Shown piece by piece: positions 4,026-7,615 of a stretch of DNA of 64,000 nucleotides. Source of the stretch: Pseudonocardiaceae bacterium (GTDB lineage: Bacteria; Actinomycetota; Actinomycetes; Mycobacteriales; Pseudonocardiaceae). The position numbers and the translations under genes are program-made. The DNA lies in contig DASYAZ010000016.1 in the NCBI GenBank assembly GCA_036501085.1, forward strand, positions 8,954-72,953. The letters are read 5' to 3'. Under the pieces are notes generated by a model. The model was not told where the DNA came from, did not search any database, and saw only the letters and a program-made list of their open reading frames with translations. Within the stretch, counting starts at the first letter, position 1, and the number at the start of each line of letters is the position of its first letter.

Positions 4026-4784
4026 CTACTCGCGCTCGACCGCGCGCCAGGAAACGGCGAAAACTCCGAGCCCGAGTCGCTTGCACTCTTCTTCTATCGT
4101 CGCACCCGGCAACGCCGCCGTGTACTCATGAATGAACGCCTCACGTTCCAGTGGAACGTCGATGGCAGCAATTTCGAGCCAAGTGGGATTCAGGATGACC
4201 TGCAGGACGGCGCTGACGTCGTCCAGATCACCCGTCGAGTCCCACACGGATCGCGCTGTACGAAATGCGAAATTCACCTGCCATTCACGAGTTCCCCAGC
4301 CGGGTTCCCACATCGACTCCATGATTAACAGCAACCCGTTCTTCGCGGTCAGCCTACGGAAATGATCGAGGACCACCTCGGGCGGCCCGACGTTGATGAC
4401 ACAACCGAGCGCCAGAACGAGATCGAACACACCGTCACGCTCGGGAGTCATGCTGAGCACGTCACGGACCTGGTAAGAGATATTCGGCCGCGACCGATCC
4501 CGCTCGGCAATCTCGATCATCGAAGGTGCCAGGTCGACGGCGACGACCTCGTCGTAACGATCAGCCAGCATGAGAGAGTAACGGCCAGTCCCACAGCCGA
4601 TATCCAGAGCACGGCGACCGGTCTCCAGATTCCTGTCCAGCCACCGGTTCATCGGCGCTTCCGGCGAGTCCAGGCTCCGGGCGAACCTGTTGTACAAGCT
4701 GATGAGATGCTTGTCGTTGTACAACTTCTCGGCAGCTCGCGGTGCCGGTACCGCACCACTCGGCCCGTCTGTTGTGGTCGGCAT
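4026..4784 (-). CDS. Class I SAM-dependent methyltransferase
   Basis: RRALDIGCGTGRYSLMLADRYDEVVAVDLAPSMIE. Start trimmed to MPTTTDG (ATG 4784, GGAGA SD), matching the N-terminus of the 1..565 paralog. Confidence 0.85.
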   Translation of the reverse strand: MPTTTDGPSGAVPAPRAAEKLYNDKHLISLYNRFARSLDSPEAPMNRWLDRNLETGRRALDIGCGTGRYSLMLADRYDEVVAVDLAPSMIEIAERDRSRPNISYQVRDVLSMTPERDGVFDLVLALGCVINVGPPEVVLDHFRRLTAKNGLLLIMESMWEPGWGTREWQVNFAFRTARSVWDSTGDLDDVSAVLQVILNPTWLEIAAIDVPLEREAFIHEYTAALPGATIEEECKRLGLGVFAVSWRAVERE

Positions 4785-4815
4785 CGAATCTCCGTTCTTC
4801 AGGGGCACGATTTCG

Positions 4816-6981
4816 TCAGGCCGGATCCGCTTGCCACACCGCGCCACTCAGATTCGGGATGACATTTTCCGTGATCCGCACACCCGGAAAGTGCCGATGG
4901 TAGTTCTGCCGGAATTCACTGAGAGTCGGCGGGATGTTCTCCTCGCTCATCTCTTTCCATCGTGGGTGAAGCATATAACGAAGTGCGTCGATCACCAGTT
5001 CGATGTCACTTGAGACCTGATAAATCGTGTGGGCGATCTCAAATGGTTGAAAACTCTGTGACATACCGGTTTCGCTTATAGACTTCCTCGGATCCTCATC
5101 GGGCCGAGTCATGTCAAGAACGACAAGCCTTCCTCCCGGAGCCAAGAGTTCCCGAAACTGGGGAAGAACGACGTCAGCCGGACCCATGAAGAATGCACTG
5201 TTGGTGGTGAACACCGTGTCGAACGTGCCGTCTTCCTCGGCCGAGAGATCCAGGACGTCGCGACACTCATACCGCACATTGGGCGGATTTGCTTTGGCCC
5301 GGGCGATCTCCAGGACTCGCGAGGACACATCGATCCCGAGGACCTCGTCGTAGCGGTCCGCGATCATCCGGCACGTGCGACCGTTACCACAACCAAGATC
5401 GATAGCCTTGCGACCTCCGGGCAACTCGGCCATGAGCCACACGCGTCCGGGGTTACCCGGAAGGTCCATCACACGGATGAAGCGGTCATAGAGCTCAGCG
5501 AGATCGTCCAGATATGGCCGGTCCGTGGCCCGATCGGTCTGACTCGTCTCAACCATGACGACCTTTCCACTGGTTGACGAAGCAGCGCTATCGCCACCGT
5601 AGATCGACGGGTGCGGCGGGTGGTAGGCATGGGGCCTCACAGGCGGCAAGACCTGCATGGCCGCGTAGGATGGGTTACACAACCGTAGTGCCCCGCTATC
5701 CGATATTGACAGAAAATCCAATACCGTAGCGGTGATCGCCAGTGCTGAGCGCAGATCACGATATGGCTTTCTGAGCAATACGAACACGATAGACGCCAGC
5801 GCGGAGGACAGGAGCAGGATCGGAACTGCCAGCCAGCGGGCAGTCAGCATCATCGCCGCGATCGCCGCCACCGGCGGGAGGCCAGTAGCGATCAGCGATC
5901 GCACGGAATGCACCGGGATTCCCGCTATGGCCACGACATCCCGGGTCGCCATGCGTGGAAGGCGATCCTCCCAGGTGGCCAGTACTGCCGGTGGCGCGCT
6001 CGTGATCCGGTCGATGATCCGGTGCGAGAGCTGCTGGAGGATGGCAACACCGGCGAGCTGCGCGCGGCTGCTCGCCCAGAGCGATGTCACCGCGTACATG
6101 ACCGCCACTACGAGCATGGAGTACAGCGGCCATCGCGCTCCATGCTGATCAGGTTGTGGCCAGATCACACTGAGGGCCAGGCCGAAGCTGACCCCGTACA
6201 GCACCCCGGCCACGACCGCCGCAACTGCTGCCTGAACTACTCCGCTGCGCGGCACGACAGACAGCAGTCGACGTGCTGCCGCCCGAACTCGGACCCCAGC
6301 ATCCAGCCGCGCGGGGGACGGCATGCTCGATGGCTGCTGGGTCAGCCTCCGGGCACAGCTACCGACGACGGGACCCAATAACACGAAGGTCAGCACATCG
6401 GCACGTGGGGTCGCCAGCACAGTGGTGACCGTGAGTACCGCAGCAAGGATGAGCACCGGTGAGTACGTGATCTCGGTCAAGGCCGCCGGCAACTGAACTT
6501 GCCGGGTTCGAGCAGCGAACCCGGCAAGAAAGCGATCGAGAGTTGCTCGATGGTGCAGAGTGTTCCTCGCACCGCAGCCAACAACGGAAACCAGCTGCGA
6601 GGTTCCGGCACTGAGGTGATCGTGCACGGTGGCAAGGGCCGCCATCCCGGATGCCCGGGCGGTGGCCGCCCACCTGCCCGCCACCGCCCCCATCGCTATC
6701 GGCACCACAAGAATTGCCGCCAGCACCGGATCCGCCCAGCCCAGAATGCCCAGCCCGGCCAAGCCGGCCAAGCCGGCCTCCGACCGGGTGGCCCGGATAG
6801 CCAGCAGGTCGGAGACCAGCAGGAACAGCAACACCGCTACCGGGTAGCCGGCGTCGCGCCACCCGCTCACGTGGTCCGGCGCGATAGGAACCGGGATAGC
6901 AACGACCAGGACGAGACCGGCCGGTATGCCGGCAAGGGCTACGGCCAGCACCAGTCTGGCAACGAGCACTGGTCGCGACAT
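4816..6981 (-). CDS. Fusion protein: polytopic membrane domain (about 530 aa, ABC-exporter-TMD-like, no ATPase) plus C-terminal class I SAM methyltransferase
   Basis: Single open frame. Start trimmed to MSRPVLVARLV (ATG 6981, GGAGG SD) just downstream of the flavin reductase stop. The N-terminal part is very hydrophobic with 10 or more predicted helices. The C-terminal 245 aa carry KAIDLGCGNGRTCRMIADRYDEVLGIDVS and are paralogous to the two neighbouring MTs. An internal ATG at 5555 (MVETSQ, GGAAAGG SD) could also give a stand-alone MT. Confidence 0.7.
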   Translation of the reverse strand: MSRPVLVARLVLAVALAGIPAGLVLVVAIPVPIAPDHVSGWRDAGYPVAVLLFLLVSDLLAIRATRSEAGLAGLAGLGILGWADPVLAAILVVPIAMGAVAGRWAATARASGMAALATVHDHLSAGTSQLVSVVGCGARNTLHHRATLDRFLAGFAARTRQVQLPAALTEITYSPVLILAAVLTVTTVLATPRADVLTFVLLGPVVGSCARRLTQQPSSMPSPARLDAGVRVRAAARRLLSVVPRSGVVQAAVAAVVAGVLYGVSFGLALSVIWPQPDQHGARWPLYSMLVVAVMYAVTSLWASSRAQLAGVAILQQLSHRIIDRITSAPPAVLATWEDRLPRMATRDVVAIAGIPVHSVRSLIATGLPPVAAIAAMMLTARWLAVPILLLSSALASIVFVLLRKPYRDLRSALAITATVLDFLSISDSGALRLCNPSYAAMQVLPPVRPHAYHPPHPSIYGGDSAASSTSGKVVMVETSQTDRATDRPYLDDLAELYDRFIRVMDLPGNPGRVWLMAELPGGRKAIDLGCGNGRTCRMIADRYDEVLGIDVSSRVLEIARAKANPPNVRYECRDVLDLSAEEDGTFDTVFTTNSAFFMGPADVVLPQFRELLAPGGRLVVLDMTRPDEDPRKSISETGMSQSFQPFEIAHTIYQVSSDIELVIDALRYMLHPRWKEMSEENIPPTLSEFRQNYHRHFPGVRITENVIPNLSGAVWQADPA

Positions 6982-7033
6982 AGTGGGTTGCACCTCCACC
7001 GATCCAGCCCAACACCTGGCCGATCTCCAGCCC

Positions 7034-7615
7034 TCAATGACGCATCGATGGGCGACCACCGGTCTCGTCTGGAACCGGCGGGATAGGCCAGGATGAGTAG
7101 CGCCGTAGCCCGTACAGCAACGGGACACCCGCAGACACCTGGATATCGAGCACACGACCCAGCACAACCCGGTGGTCCCCTACCTGAATCTCCCCAGCCA
7201 CCTCACAGGCGGCCGCTGCAAAAGCGTCGAGACGCAGGAAAGGCAGCTTCGAAGGACCCCATGACTCCCACGGGATCTCGGCAAATTTGTCAACGTGCAA
7301 CGAAGAAAATACTGACGCCGCGCGTTGCCCTTCGGCGTGCAGGAGATTGACAGCGAACCTTCTGCCCGCCAGCACGGCATGGAGGGTCCCTCCAAGCTCG
7401 CACAGGCACACCAGAAGGGTGGGAGGTGACAGCGTCACGCTCGACAGCGAGGAGCAGGTCGCTCCCTGCGGACGACCCGCGAGGTCCCTCGCGGTCACCA
7501 CCGAGACACCGGTGGGGAACGAGCTCATCAGGTCCCGGAAGTGACCCACGTCGGCGTGCTCATCCGGCGACCGGACGGTCAGGTGCAGGGCATCAGCCCG
7601 ATCGTATGAATTCAC
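7034..7615 (-). CDS. NAD(P)H:flavin reductase (RebF/HpaC-type) partner of the halogenase
   Basis: 193 aa. FPTGVSVVTA and GDHxVxxGxV-like motif (QVGDHRVVLGRV) of flavin reductase-like domain proteins. Sits directly downstream of the halogenase. Confidence 0.85.
   Translation of the reverse strand: MNSYDRADALHLTVRSPDEHADVGHFRDLMSSFPTGVSVVTARDLAGRPQGATCSSLSSVTLSPPTLLVCLCELGGTLHAVLAGRRFAVNLLHAEGQRAASVFSSLHVDKFAEIPWESWGPSKLPFLRLDAFAAAACEVAGEIQVGDHRVVLGRVLDIQVSAGVPLLYGLRRYSSWPIPPVPDETGGRPSMRH

What the first reader, a model, noticed from the sequence alone, without database searches (positions are those of the whole stretch)
4816..6981. Polytopic membrane domain fused in frame to a SAM methyltransferase inside the bisindole cluster
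Seen: one uninterrupted frame of 721 codons. The first roughly 530 aa are extremely hydrophobic, with many helices. Segments such as AQLAGVAILQQLSHRIIDRITSAPPAVLATWEDRLPRMATRDVVAIAG resemble the TM2-TM3 loop region of ABC-exporter transmembrane domains. There is no Walker A/B or ABC signature anywhere. The last roughly 245 aa are a complete class I methyltransferase, paralogous to its two neighbours.

Inference, with three options:
- A membrane-tethered methyltransferase that couples modification to export or self-resistance. That would replace the RebT/RebU-type transporters, which are missing here.
- A decayed ABC exporter whose ATPase was deleted, fusing it to the next gene.
- An MT that is additionally translated on its own from the internal ATG at 5555, which has its own GGAAAGG SD.
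Basis: partly seen in the sequence, partly recalled or inferred. Interest (0 to 1): 0.6.

Follow-up and report, generated by a model that had tools for sequence, protein, structure and literature searches.

The report
ATPase-less ABC exporter relic fused to methyltransferase
In a cladoniamide-like bisindole gene cluster, the membrane part of an ABC exporter that has lost both ATP motors has been joined in frame to the next gene, a methyltransferase; the join is real but confined to this lineage, whereas the motor-less membrane protein is a rare conserved family of unknown function.

Summary
The 721-codon frame (4816-6981, minus strand) is real and codes.

**What the ORF contains**
- Residues 1-435 are a reduced double membrane domain of a type IV ABC exporter (TMD1 and TMD2). 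Both ATPase domains are gone.
- Residues 436-475 are a disordered tether that corresponds to the former intergenic spacer.
- Residues 476-721 are a complete class I SAM methyltransferase. It keeps its ancestral Shine-Dalgarno site and ATG.

**Comparison with relatives**
- In two syntenic Pseudonocardiaceae MAG loci the membrane gene and the methyltransferase gene are separate, with stop codons and a spacer about 120-200 nt longer than the window's.
- All other relatives of the membrane part are stand-alone proteins of 402-537 aa.
- All methyltransferase orthologues are stand-alone proteins of 245-266 aa.
- The fusion is therefore specific to this lineage.

**Is the fusion an artefact?** No. 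The same 721-aa product is called on a separate JGI contig. A third contig carries a variant with one substitution that spans the junction without a gap.

**The membrane protein**
- It evolves fast: 46% identity against 67-82% for its neighbours, and dN/dS 0.34-0.45.
- Its frame nevertheless stays open in relatives down to about 25-30% identity.
- No other transporter or ABC ATPase lies in the cluster or on the contig.

**Verdict.** Option 1 is unproven. This is a new variant of a known kind, of moderate interest.

The parts
4816..6981 (-). Whole fused ORF, 721 aa plus stop (P0001)
   Evidence: Open frame. Coding-type codon-position GC. The exact product is also called on a second JGI contig, and a junction-spanning variant on a third.
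6993..6997 (-). GGAGG Shine-Dalgarno site, 11 nt upstream of the ATG at 6981-6979
   Evidence: Read from the sequence. The start agrees with the 'MSR' N-termini of orthologues.
6337..6981 (-). Residues 1-215: shrunken first membrane domain (TMD1-derived). It has short N-terminal helices, an ICL2-like cytoplasmic loop (about residues 102-166) and a TM5-TM6-like pair.
   Evidence: Profile positions 105-206 match YbtQ 194-291. Profile 39-217 matches TMD1 of fused ~1200-aa or paired ~600-aa ABC exporters, about 850 nt upstream of the TMD2 match. AF2 helices.
6250..6336 (-). Residues 216-244: Pro/Ser/Arg-rich junction where NBD1 would sit in the ancestor, followed by an elbow helix
   Evidence: Low pLDDT at about residues 220-230. 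This is the least conserved region. The TMD1 and TMD2 matches in full ABC exporters are separated by a gap the size of an NBD.
5677..6249 (-). Residues 245-435: second membrane domain (TMD2-derived). It has TM1-TM4 with an ICL1-like loop (about residues 305-361) and a basic cytoplasmic tail helix. Relative to distant family members it lacks a ~55-aa TM5/6-like segment.
   Evidence: PF00664 in P0003, residues 249-402 onto profile positions 8-163. YbtQ 11-184. hhalign probability 98.3% to TMD2 of a 1201-aa ABC exporter. The insertion in P0006-P0009.
5557..5676 (-). Residues 436-475: tether, the former intergenic spacer, shortened and without a stop codon
   Evidence: pLDDT below 50. Orthologues end 0-20 residues after residue ~432 and have spacers about 120-200 nt longer, with stops. 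The other two frames of the window spacer contain stops.
5609..5628 (-). 20-nt GCCTACCACCCGCCGCACCC inside a ~63-nt conserved spacer block. The block is in frame with the methyltransferase in all three loci (peptide AYHPPHP, or AYHPPRT in L002).
   Evidence: Identical in the window and L003, with a near-match in L002. Unique in the window. No Rfam match.
5656..5658 (-). ATG of Met442, a conserved in-frame ATG at the head of the spacer block; no SD before it
   Evidence: 'CC ATG C(A/G)G' is aligned in all three loci.
5562..5568 (-). GGAAAGG Shine-Dalgarno site for the ancestral methyltransferase start
   Evidence: L003 and L002 carry AAGGACAGGA at the same place.
4816..5556 (-). Residues 476-721: class I SAM-dependent methyltransferase (MT_A), 246 aa, from the ATG at 5556-5554
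   Evidence: Methyltransf_25 at 64.7 bits and related families. It is 76-83% identical to stand-alone orthologues of 245-266 aa. Six of the seven whose sequences were read begin at this MV/MA residue; the seventh starts one residue later. dN/dS is 0.06.

Best explanation
The ORF is a lineage-specific in-frame fusion of two adjacent, co-transcribed cluster genes.

**Gene 1.** It encodes an NBD-less relic of a TMD1-NBD1-TMD2-NBD2 (or paired half-transporter) type IV ABC exporter.
- NBD1 was excised in frame and NBD2 was truncated away.
- Both membrane domains shrank, to about 215 and about 190 aa.
- What remains includes the ICL2-like loop of TMD1 and the ICL1-like loop of TMD2.
- This relic is a rare stand-alone protein family. 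Every member whose neighbourhood could be read lies in a tryptophan-dimer cluster.

**Gene 2.** It encodes a 246-aa class I SAM methyltransferase of the cluster, probably an N-methyltransferase acting on the bisindole scaffold (inferred).

**The fusion event.** In this population a deletion of roughly 120-200 nt removed the stop codon(s) of the relic gene and most of the spacer. The rest stayed open and in frame.

**Expected products (inferred).**
- Ribosomes starting at 6981 make a membrane-anchored methyltransferase on a ~40-aa flexible tether. The predicted topology places it in the cytoplasm.
- The conserved SD and ATG at Met476 should still yield free methyltransferase.

**Role of the relic (inferred, not shown).** It fills the cluster's otherwise empty transporter slot. 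It would act as an ATP-independent exit path or self-protection protein for the hydrophobic product.
For: **Relic identity**
- PF00664 in orthologue P0003, 29.9 bits against a cut-off of 28.
- PDB profile hit to YbtQ, E 4.8e-6, with two stretches mapping as described.
- The N- and C-terminal parts hit TMD1 and TMD2 of ~1200-aa fused or adjacent ~600-aa ABC exporters, about 850 nt apart.
- hhalign probability 98.3%.
- AF2 model with pLDDT 72 and pTM 0.69.
- Foldseek top hits are full-length ABCC/ABCB transporters.
- VIA Z about 25, rmsd about 4 A over 360-400 residues, spanning TMD1 to TMD2 of SUR1 and MRP4.

**No ATPase**
- No ABC_tran domain or Walker/signature motifs.
- No PF00005 match on the 74.5-kb contig.
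- No NBD remnant in the spacers.

**Family under constraint**
- Frames stay open in about 10 lineages down to 25-30% identity, all of 402-537 aa.
- dN/dS 0.34-0.45.

**Separate genes in orthologues**
- L002 and L003 show the order TMD, MT, MT, with halogenase and flavin reductase before them in L003 (L002's contig ends just upstream); TMD and MT are separated by stops.
- The methyltransferase start is conserved.

**Fusion is unique**
- No other protein of 432 aa or more carries this methyltransferase.
- No fused member was found in the two searches with the membrane part.

**Fusion is real**
- The exact 721-aa product occurs on a second contig, and an S393P variant spans the junction on a third.

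**Topology**
- K+R-rich loops at residues 102-166, 216-244, 305-361 and 403-435.

**Empty transporter slot**
- No other transporter lies between C16:7050 and window position 22099.
- The cla and abe clusters carry a Na+/H+-antiporter-type ClaT/AbeT between their H and F genes (PMC3158105).
Against: - The relic evolves much faster than every neighbour: 46% identity against 67-82%. Its C-terminal end differs in every lineage. L002 has a local frameshift, and the close clade has a 55-aa deletion. All of this is also compatible with slow decay.
- No experiment or expression data exist. Which start codons are used is unknown.
- Nothing here shows transport.
- Only three loci with readable context were available.
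- The assemblies that reproduce the fusion may come from related samples.
Confidence: 0.6

Rival explanations
1. The membrane gene is a slowly decaying pseudogene-like remnant with no function. Loss of its stop in this lineage is one more step of decay. Only the free methyltransferase, made from Met476, matters.
For: - It is the fastest-evolving gene of the operon, and its dN/dS is 2-6 times that of its neighbours.
- Helices have been lost stepwise: a 55-aa deletion relative to P0006-P0009.
- The C-terminal ends vary, and L002 has a frameshift.
- The methyltransferase start and SD are intact.
- The family is rare: present in 1 of 301 and 1 of 401 genomes sampled.
Against: - A dead gene would not keep a ~430-codon frame open in about 10 lineages down to 25-30% identity.
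- dN/dS 0.34 at an unsaturated dS of 0.43 indicates purifying selection.
- Hydrophobic helices and several polar positions (T159, E170, D348, H358) stay conserved.
Confidence: 0.2
2. The fusion is adaptive. The relic is a membrane dock that holds the methyltransferase at the exit site, possibly on the vestigial NBD2-docking loops. The last methylation is thereby coupled to release of the product.
For: - The relic and methyltransferase genes are adjacent in all three readable loci.
- The retained loops are the ICL2-like loop of TMD1 and the ICL1-like loop of TMD2. In type IV exporters these two jointly contact NBD2; this rests on established structural knowledge, not on a test here.
- The C-terminus is cytoplasmic.
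- The fusion persists in a natural population with variants.
Against: - The fusion was found in one population only, among billions of proteins searched.
- In Streptomyces sp. NBC_01803 the two genes are about 11 accession numbers apart.
- The tether is leftover spacer, not a designed linker.
- The methyltransferase keeps its own start.
- No interface could be modelled, because alignment A5 was unusable.
Confidence: 0.13
3. The fusion is a sequencing or assembly artefact. The organism really has two genes.
For: - The orthologous loci have two genes with stops.
- The source is a MAG of 180 contigs.
Against: - The difference from the orthologues is a deletion of about 120-200 nt, not a one-base error.
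- The identical 721-aa product is called on a separate JGI contig of 35.9 kb.
- A 2.1-kb contig with an S393P variant spans the junction without a gap.
Confidence: 0.05

Closest known systems
Fused or paired type IV (exporter-fold) ABC transporters of actinomycetes; among solved structures YbtPQ, CydDC, IrtAB, MsbA, and full-length ABCC/ABCB proteins
   Same: The membrane helices are homologous in sequence profile and predicted fold. The order TMD1 then TMD2 is kept. ICL-like long cytoplasmic helices are present.
   Different: There is no NBD and no Walker or signature motif. Each membrane domain is cut to about two thirds of normal size. The ICL1 extension of TMD1 is absent, as are the TM5/6 helices of TMD2. 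No ATPase is encoded on the contig.
ClaT/AbeT (cladoniamide and BE-54017 clusters) and RebT (rebeccamycin cluster): cluster-encoded Na+/H+-antiporter-type membrane transporters
   Same: Each is a polytopic membrane protein of similar size (422/412 aa) encoded next to the halogenase and flavin reductase genes of a bisindole cluster (PMC3158105). Each is presumed to handle export.
   Different: They belong to an unrelated protein family. The relic gives no antiporter Pfam hit and derives from an ABC exporter. Its position is after the F gene rather than between H and F.
ClaM1/AbeM1 and AbeM2 N-methyltransferases of indenotryptoline pathways
   Same: They are small class I SAM methyltransferases (243/231 aa) in the same type of cluster. 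The methyltransferase part here is 246 aa and carries the same Pfam domains.
   Different: Orthology was not tested, because no reference sequences were on hand. The enzyme here is fused to a membrane domain, and the cluster holds three such paralogues.
ATPase-less ABC membrane-domain proteins noted earlier in this scan (C39 peptidase-TMD; TMD::HlyD fusions)
   Same: An ABC exporter membrane domain is kept and conserved after loss of the ATPase (notes e1-3251126, e1-1382692, e1-908888, e1-697629). These notes were not checked here.
   Different: Those are single TMDs with other partners, in Bacilli and Bacteroidota. This one is a double TMD from a full-length or paired exporter, sits in actinomycete natural-product clusters, and is here joined to a methyltransferase.

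Membership tests
Type IV ABC exporter (PF00664 membrane domain plus PF00005 ATPase) | Sequence homology to the ABC_membrane domain | tested here: met
   The window protein alone gives no Pfam hit at E up to 10. Orthologue P0003 scores 29.9 bits against a cut-off of 28. The family profile hits YbtQ at E 4.8e-6. hhalign gives 98.3% to TMD2 of a 1201-aa ABC exporter.
Type IV ABC exporter (PF00664 membrane domain plus PF00005 ATPase) | Exporter-type helix arrangement in three dimensions | tested here: met
   AF2 model with pLDDT 72. VIA Z about 25, rmsd about 4 A over 360-400 residues to SUR1, MRP4 and ABCC1, well above the background of about 13 for helical bundles. This is a predicted model, not a solved structure.
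Type IV ABC exporter (PF00664 membrane domain plus PF00005 ATPase) | Nucleotide-binding domain with Walker A, Walker B and LSGGQ signature | tested here: not met
   No ABC_tran hit. No motif by regular expression. No PF00005 on contig C16. No NBD remnant in the spacers.
Type IV ABC exporter (PF00664 membrane domain plus PF00005 ATPase) | Six full transmembrane helices with two long intracellular loops per membrane domain | tested here: not met
   The halves are about 215 and about 190 aa, against about 320 aa normally. Only one long loop remains per half. TM5/6 of the second half are absent in this clade.
Class I SAM-dependent methyltransferase | Rossmann-type methyltransferase domain above the Pfam threshold, with the glycine-rich SAM motif | tested here: met
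   Methyltransf_25 at 64.7 bits (cut-off 27), Methyltransf_11 at 57.1 bits. The motif IDLGCGNG is visible in the translation.
ClaM1/AbeM1-type bisindole N-methyltransferase | Orthology to the characterised enzymes, and N-methylation of the imide or indole nitrogen | not tested
   No reference sequences were available in the tools. Only size and cluster context agree.
RebT/ClaT-type Na+/H+ antiporter-like cluster transporter | Homology to the Na+/H+ exchanger family | tested here: not met
   Residues 1-475 give no Pfam hit at E up to 10. All profile and fold matches are to ABC exporters.

The most novel reading that the evidence does not exclude
The ATPase-less double membrane domain is not just an exit pore. 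It is a repurposed docking platform. Its two surviving cytoplasmic loops, which clasp NBD2 in ABC exporters, would now hold a Rossmann-fold tailoring enzyme (the adjacent methyltransferase). The final methylation and membrane release of a toxic bisindole would then be coupled without ATP. On this reading the window's fusion is a natural 'hard-wired' version of that complex.
Probability: 0.1. Interest if true: 0.75.

Novelty: new variant of a known kind. Interest (0 to 1): 0.45.

Why it matters
- It would show that an ABC exporter scaffold can outlive both of its motors and be retained, under weak purifying selection, in natural-product clusters. That raises the question of what such a membrane domain does without ATP: passive exit path, self-protection, or enzyme dock.
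- For bisindole pathway engineering, it marks a conserved accessory gene that standard annotation calls 'hypothetical'. It may affect titre or toxicity in heterologous hosts.
- The natural fused and unfused pairs (the window against L003-type loci) provide a ready-made comparison for testing whether tethering a tailoring enzyme to the membrane changes the product profile.
- For annotation, gene callers disagree on this ORF (609 against 721 aa), and the methyltransferase start inside it would be missed.

Tried and rejected
- **The look-up of encoding contigs.** It was closed. The contexts of P0003, P0004 and P0006-P0010 could therefore not be read.
- **Metagenome scans.** Two scans of metagenome contigs found nothing. 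One alignment was too diverse to scan at all.
- **Streptomyces carriers of the relic.** I tried to reach them by guessing genera in the genome search. Both guesses hit small non-target genera and gave nothing.
- **Spacer RNA.** An Rfam search of the spacer gave no match.
- **Promoters.** The sigma-70 consensus scan of 4700-7300 found no site. My by-eye TTGCCG-18-TACCAC candidate is therefore unsupported.
- **NBD remnants.** tblastn of ABC exporters against the three spacers gave only E above 0.5.
- **Operator hypothesis.** The 20-mer occurs only once in the window, so it is not a repeated operator.
- **Full-length AF2.** MAFFT misaligned the membrane-only rows onto the methyltransferase, so the job was not run.
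- **Literature.** Searches for NBD-less ABC membrane proteins or ABC relics in tryptophan-dimer clusters gave nothing usable. The MP131-18 paper and its supplement do not identify its 'putative transporter' SBA_07019 well enough to equate it with ONK16169.
- **Conservation by region.** It showed no striking concentration in the cytoplasmic loops. I do not claim a conserved docking surface.
Full report
**Observation**

On the minus strand an open frame runs from 7167 (TTG) to 4816. The biologically sensible start is the ATG at 6981, which gives 721 aa.
- A GGAGG lies 11 nt upstream of that ATG.
- The N-terminus 'MSRP...' matches the N-termini of orthologues P0003 and P0005/L002.
- Codon-position GC is coding-like along the whole frame and similar to eight neighbouring genes.
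- Pfam finds only class I methyltransferase domains, at residues 517-632.
- Residues 1-475 alone give no Pfam hit even at E 10.
- Hydropathy shows about nine hydrophobic helices up to residue ~402.
- There is no Walker A, Walker B or signature motif.

The membrane part is residues 1-435, a linker is 436-475, and the methyltransferase is 476-721.

**Identity of the membrane part**

Relatives are extremely rare.
- Three were found among 5.8 billion clustered proteins. One of these is the window's own protein, called as 609 aa.
- Ten were found among 1.84 billion representatives.
- All are stand-alone proteins of 402-537 aa, apart from fragments and one low-complexity hit.

Several lines of evidence tie the family to ABC exporters.
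- Orthologue P0003 passes the Pfam threshold for ABC_membrane (29.9 bits against 28). Its residues 249-402 match profile positions 8-163.
- A profile of the family hits the solved exporter-fold protein YbtQ at E 4.8e-6 in two pieces. Profile 233-401 maps to YbtQ 11-184 (TM1-TM4). Profile 105-206 maps to YbtQ 194-291 (second intracellular loop, TM5, TM6).
- In a sample of 401 genomes of the class, the two parts of the profile repeatedly hit the same locus about 850 nt apart. These loci are either single ~1200-aa frames or two adjacent ~600-aa frames.
- NCBIfam names these proteins MsbA/CydDC-like permease-ATPase proteins.
- hhalign gives 98.3% probability for the second half against TMD2 of one such 1201-aa protein.
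- An AlphaFold2 model (pLDDT 72, pTM 0.69) has the long helices typical of the fold.
- Foldseek ranks full-length ABCC/ABCB transporters first.
- VIA-align gives Z about 25 and rmsd about 4 A over 360-400 residues. The alignments run from TMD1 into TMD2 of SUR1, MRP4 and ABCC1.

I conclude that the protein descends from a TMD1-NBD1-TMD2-NBD2 exporter, or from a fused pair of half-transporters. NBD1 was excised in frame and NBD2 was cut off. Both membrane domains are shortened.

More distant family members (P0006-P0009) still carry a ~55-aa TM5/6-like segment that the window's clade has lost. No ABC ATPase domain is encoded anywhere on the 74.5-kb contig. The spacers downstream of the gene hold no NBD remnant.

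**Genomic context**

The window lies in a 3.34-Mb MAG. The minus-strand operon runs in this order:
- tryptophan halogenase
- flavin reductase
- this ORF
- a second class I methyltransferase
- a ClaX2-sized FAD monooxygenase
- an SDR

The StaP/RebP-like P450, the StaD/RebD-like protein and the RebO-like oxidase lie upstream. Also nearby are two O-methyltransferases, two large FAD monooxygenases, a third class I methyltransferase and a LAL regulator.

This inventory resembles the cladoniamide and BE-54017 clusters (PMC3158105). In those clusters a Na+/H+-antiporter-type ClaT/AbeT sits between the halogenase and the flavin reductase. No such transporter, and no other transporter, was found between contig position 7050 and window position 22099.

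**Orthologous loci**

Two Pseudonocardiaceae MAG contigs carry syntenic gene orders (L002 from G420, L003 from G421). L003 reads halogenase, flavin reductase, relic, MT, MT, SDR. L002, whose contig ends just upstream of the relic, reads relic, MT, MT, FAD monooxygenase, SDR.
- In both loci the relic and the methyltransferase are separate genes. They are divided by stop codons and a spacer that is about 120-200 nt longer than in the window.
- The methyltransferase start 'ATG GTT GAG/AAG ACG' is conserved in all three loci. So is a purine-rich SD: GGAAAGG in the window and AAGGACAGGA in the others.
- Database orthologues of the methyltransferase (76-83% identity) are 245-266 aa. Six of the seven whose sequences were read begin at that MV/MA residue; the seventh, P0021, starts one residue later.
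- No other protein of 432 aa or more contains this methyltransferase.

The fusion is therefore specific to this lineage. It arose through loss of the relic's stop and part of the spacer. The remaining 40 codons are open only in the fused frame and are predicted to be disordered.

G420, the source of L002, is flagged as unpublished. The claims that rest partly on it are:
- the second example of synteny;
- the three-way spacer alignment;
- the L002-L003 dN/dS values.

The first two also hold with L003 alone. The unsaturated L002-L003 comparison has no L003-only equivalent; only the window-L003 values remain.

**Is the fusion an artefact?**

No.
- The exact 721-aa sequence is also on record from a JGI/IMG contig of 35,905 bp. 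That contig is distinct from the 74,493-bp NCBI contig.
- A 351-aa product from a 2,104-bp JGI contig covers residues 371-721 without a gap. It differs only by S393P.
- A variant carrying the same junction argues for a real allele in a natural population.

**Selection**

| Comparison | Relic | Neighbouring genes |
|---|---|---|
| Window vs L003, protein identity | 46% | 67-82% |
| dN/dS, all three pairwise comparisons | 0.34-0.45 | 0.06-0.25 |

The unsaturated L002-L003 pair gives dS 0.43 and dN/dS 0.34 for the relic. Constraint is therefore relaxed but not absent. The frame has stayed open in about ten lineages down to 25-30% identity, which a dead gene would not do. Conservation by region is fairly even.

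**Mechanism: shown and inferred**

Shown:
- domain ancestry;
- absence of an ATPase;
- separate genes in relatives;
- conserved internal start signals;
- reproducibility of the fusion.

Inferred:
- The distribution of basic residues places residues 102-166, 216-244, 305-361 and the tail 403-435 in the cytoplasm. The methyltransferase would then be tethered on the cytoplasmic face, where SAM is available, so the fusion is tolerable.
- Both a fused ~77-kDa form and a free ~27-kDa form are expected.
- The relic fills the cluster's empty transporter slot and acts without its own ATPase, as an exit path or protective binder for a flat hydrophobic product.

One further reading rests on established structural knowledge of exporter-fold ABC proteins and was not tested here. 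The two long loops that survive (ICL2-like of the first half, ICL1-like of the second) are the pair that together contact NBD2. This leaves room for the idea that they now dock another protein.

**Wider distribution**

- Distant members of the relic family come from Streptomyces johnsoniae, Streptomyces sp. MP131-18 and Streptomyces sp. NBC_01803.
- MP131-18 is a producer of lynamicin and spiroindimicin bisindoles (PMC5301196).
- In NBC_01803 an MT_A-like methyltransferase is 11 accession numbers away from the relic.
- I could not confirm that these lie in bisindole clusters.
- The relic was found in only 1 of 301 sampled genomes of G421's family, and only in the window's own genome among the 401 genomes of the class sample.

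**Verdict**

'Coupled modification and export' remains a minority possibility.

The fusion itself is a local event. The more general finding is a rare, conserved ABC exporter relic that lacks both ATPase domains and whose readable loci lie in tryptophan-dimer clusters. Earlier notes of this scan report other ATPase-less ABC membrane-domain families on other DNA (not checked here), so the theme is not unique.

Rating: a new variant of a known kind, interest 0.45.

Noticed in passing
window 5590-5665 (minus strand); L003:11215-11290; L002:1722-1800: A ~63-nt block of the spacer between the relic and the methyltransferase is conserved across loci whose flanking relic gene is only 46% identical. 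It contains a perfect 20-mer shared by the window and L003. In all three loci it starts with a conserved ATG (Met442 in the window) that has no SD. It is in frame with the methyltransferase and open, although the connectors differ in length (34, 44 and 57 codons, all multiples of three). It could be an N-terminal extension or isoform of the methyltransferase, a leader, or a DNA/RNA control element. It remains unexplained.
   Followed up: partly
window 1-22099 plus G000:C16:7050-8953 (L019): The cluster resembles the cladoniamide and BE-54017 clusters. It differs in having three class I methyltransferases, two O-methyltransferases, an SDR and a further P450 at 22219-23424, and it has no alpha/beta hydrolase (ClaY) in the genes scanned. 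It probably makes an undescribed, heavily methylated chlorinated tryptophan dimer.
   Followed up: partly
L002:1560-1600: In L002 the relic gene ends early ('FLVR*'). The peptide 'SLPGVE', which ends P0003 and P0004, is readable just downstream in another frame. This indicates a local frameshift at the 3' end of the gene in that MAG (from the unpublished genome G420).
   Followed up: no
window 4816-6645 against 4816-6981: Gene callers disagree on the start. The NCBI record aa from Met113, while JGI aa. Orthologue alignment supports the longer form.
   Followed up: yes
P0008/P0016 (not in the window): A 537-aa member of the relic family is annotated 'ABC transporter ATP-binding protein' in Streptomyces sp. 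MP131-18, although it has no ATPase domain. That strain makes lynamicins and spiroindimicins, and its lyn cluster lists an uncharacterised 'putative transporter' SBA_07019. Whether the two are the same gene could not be checked.
   Followed up: partly
window 4784-4847: The listed GTG start of the downstream methyltransferase (4847) overlaps the stop of the fused ORF. Alignment with its orthologues (252 aa) and with MT_A suggests that the ATG at 4784 is the real start.
   Followed up: partly
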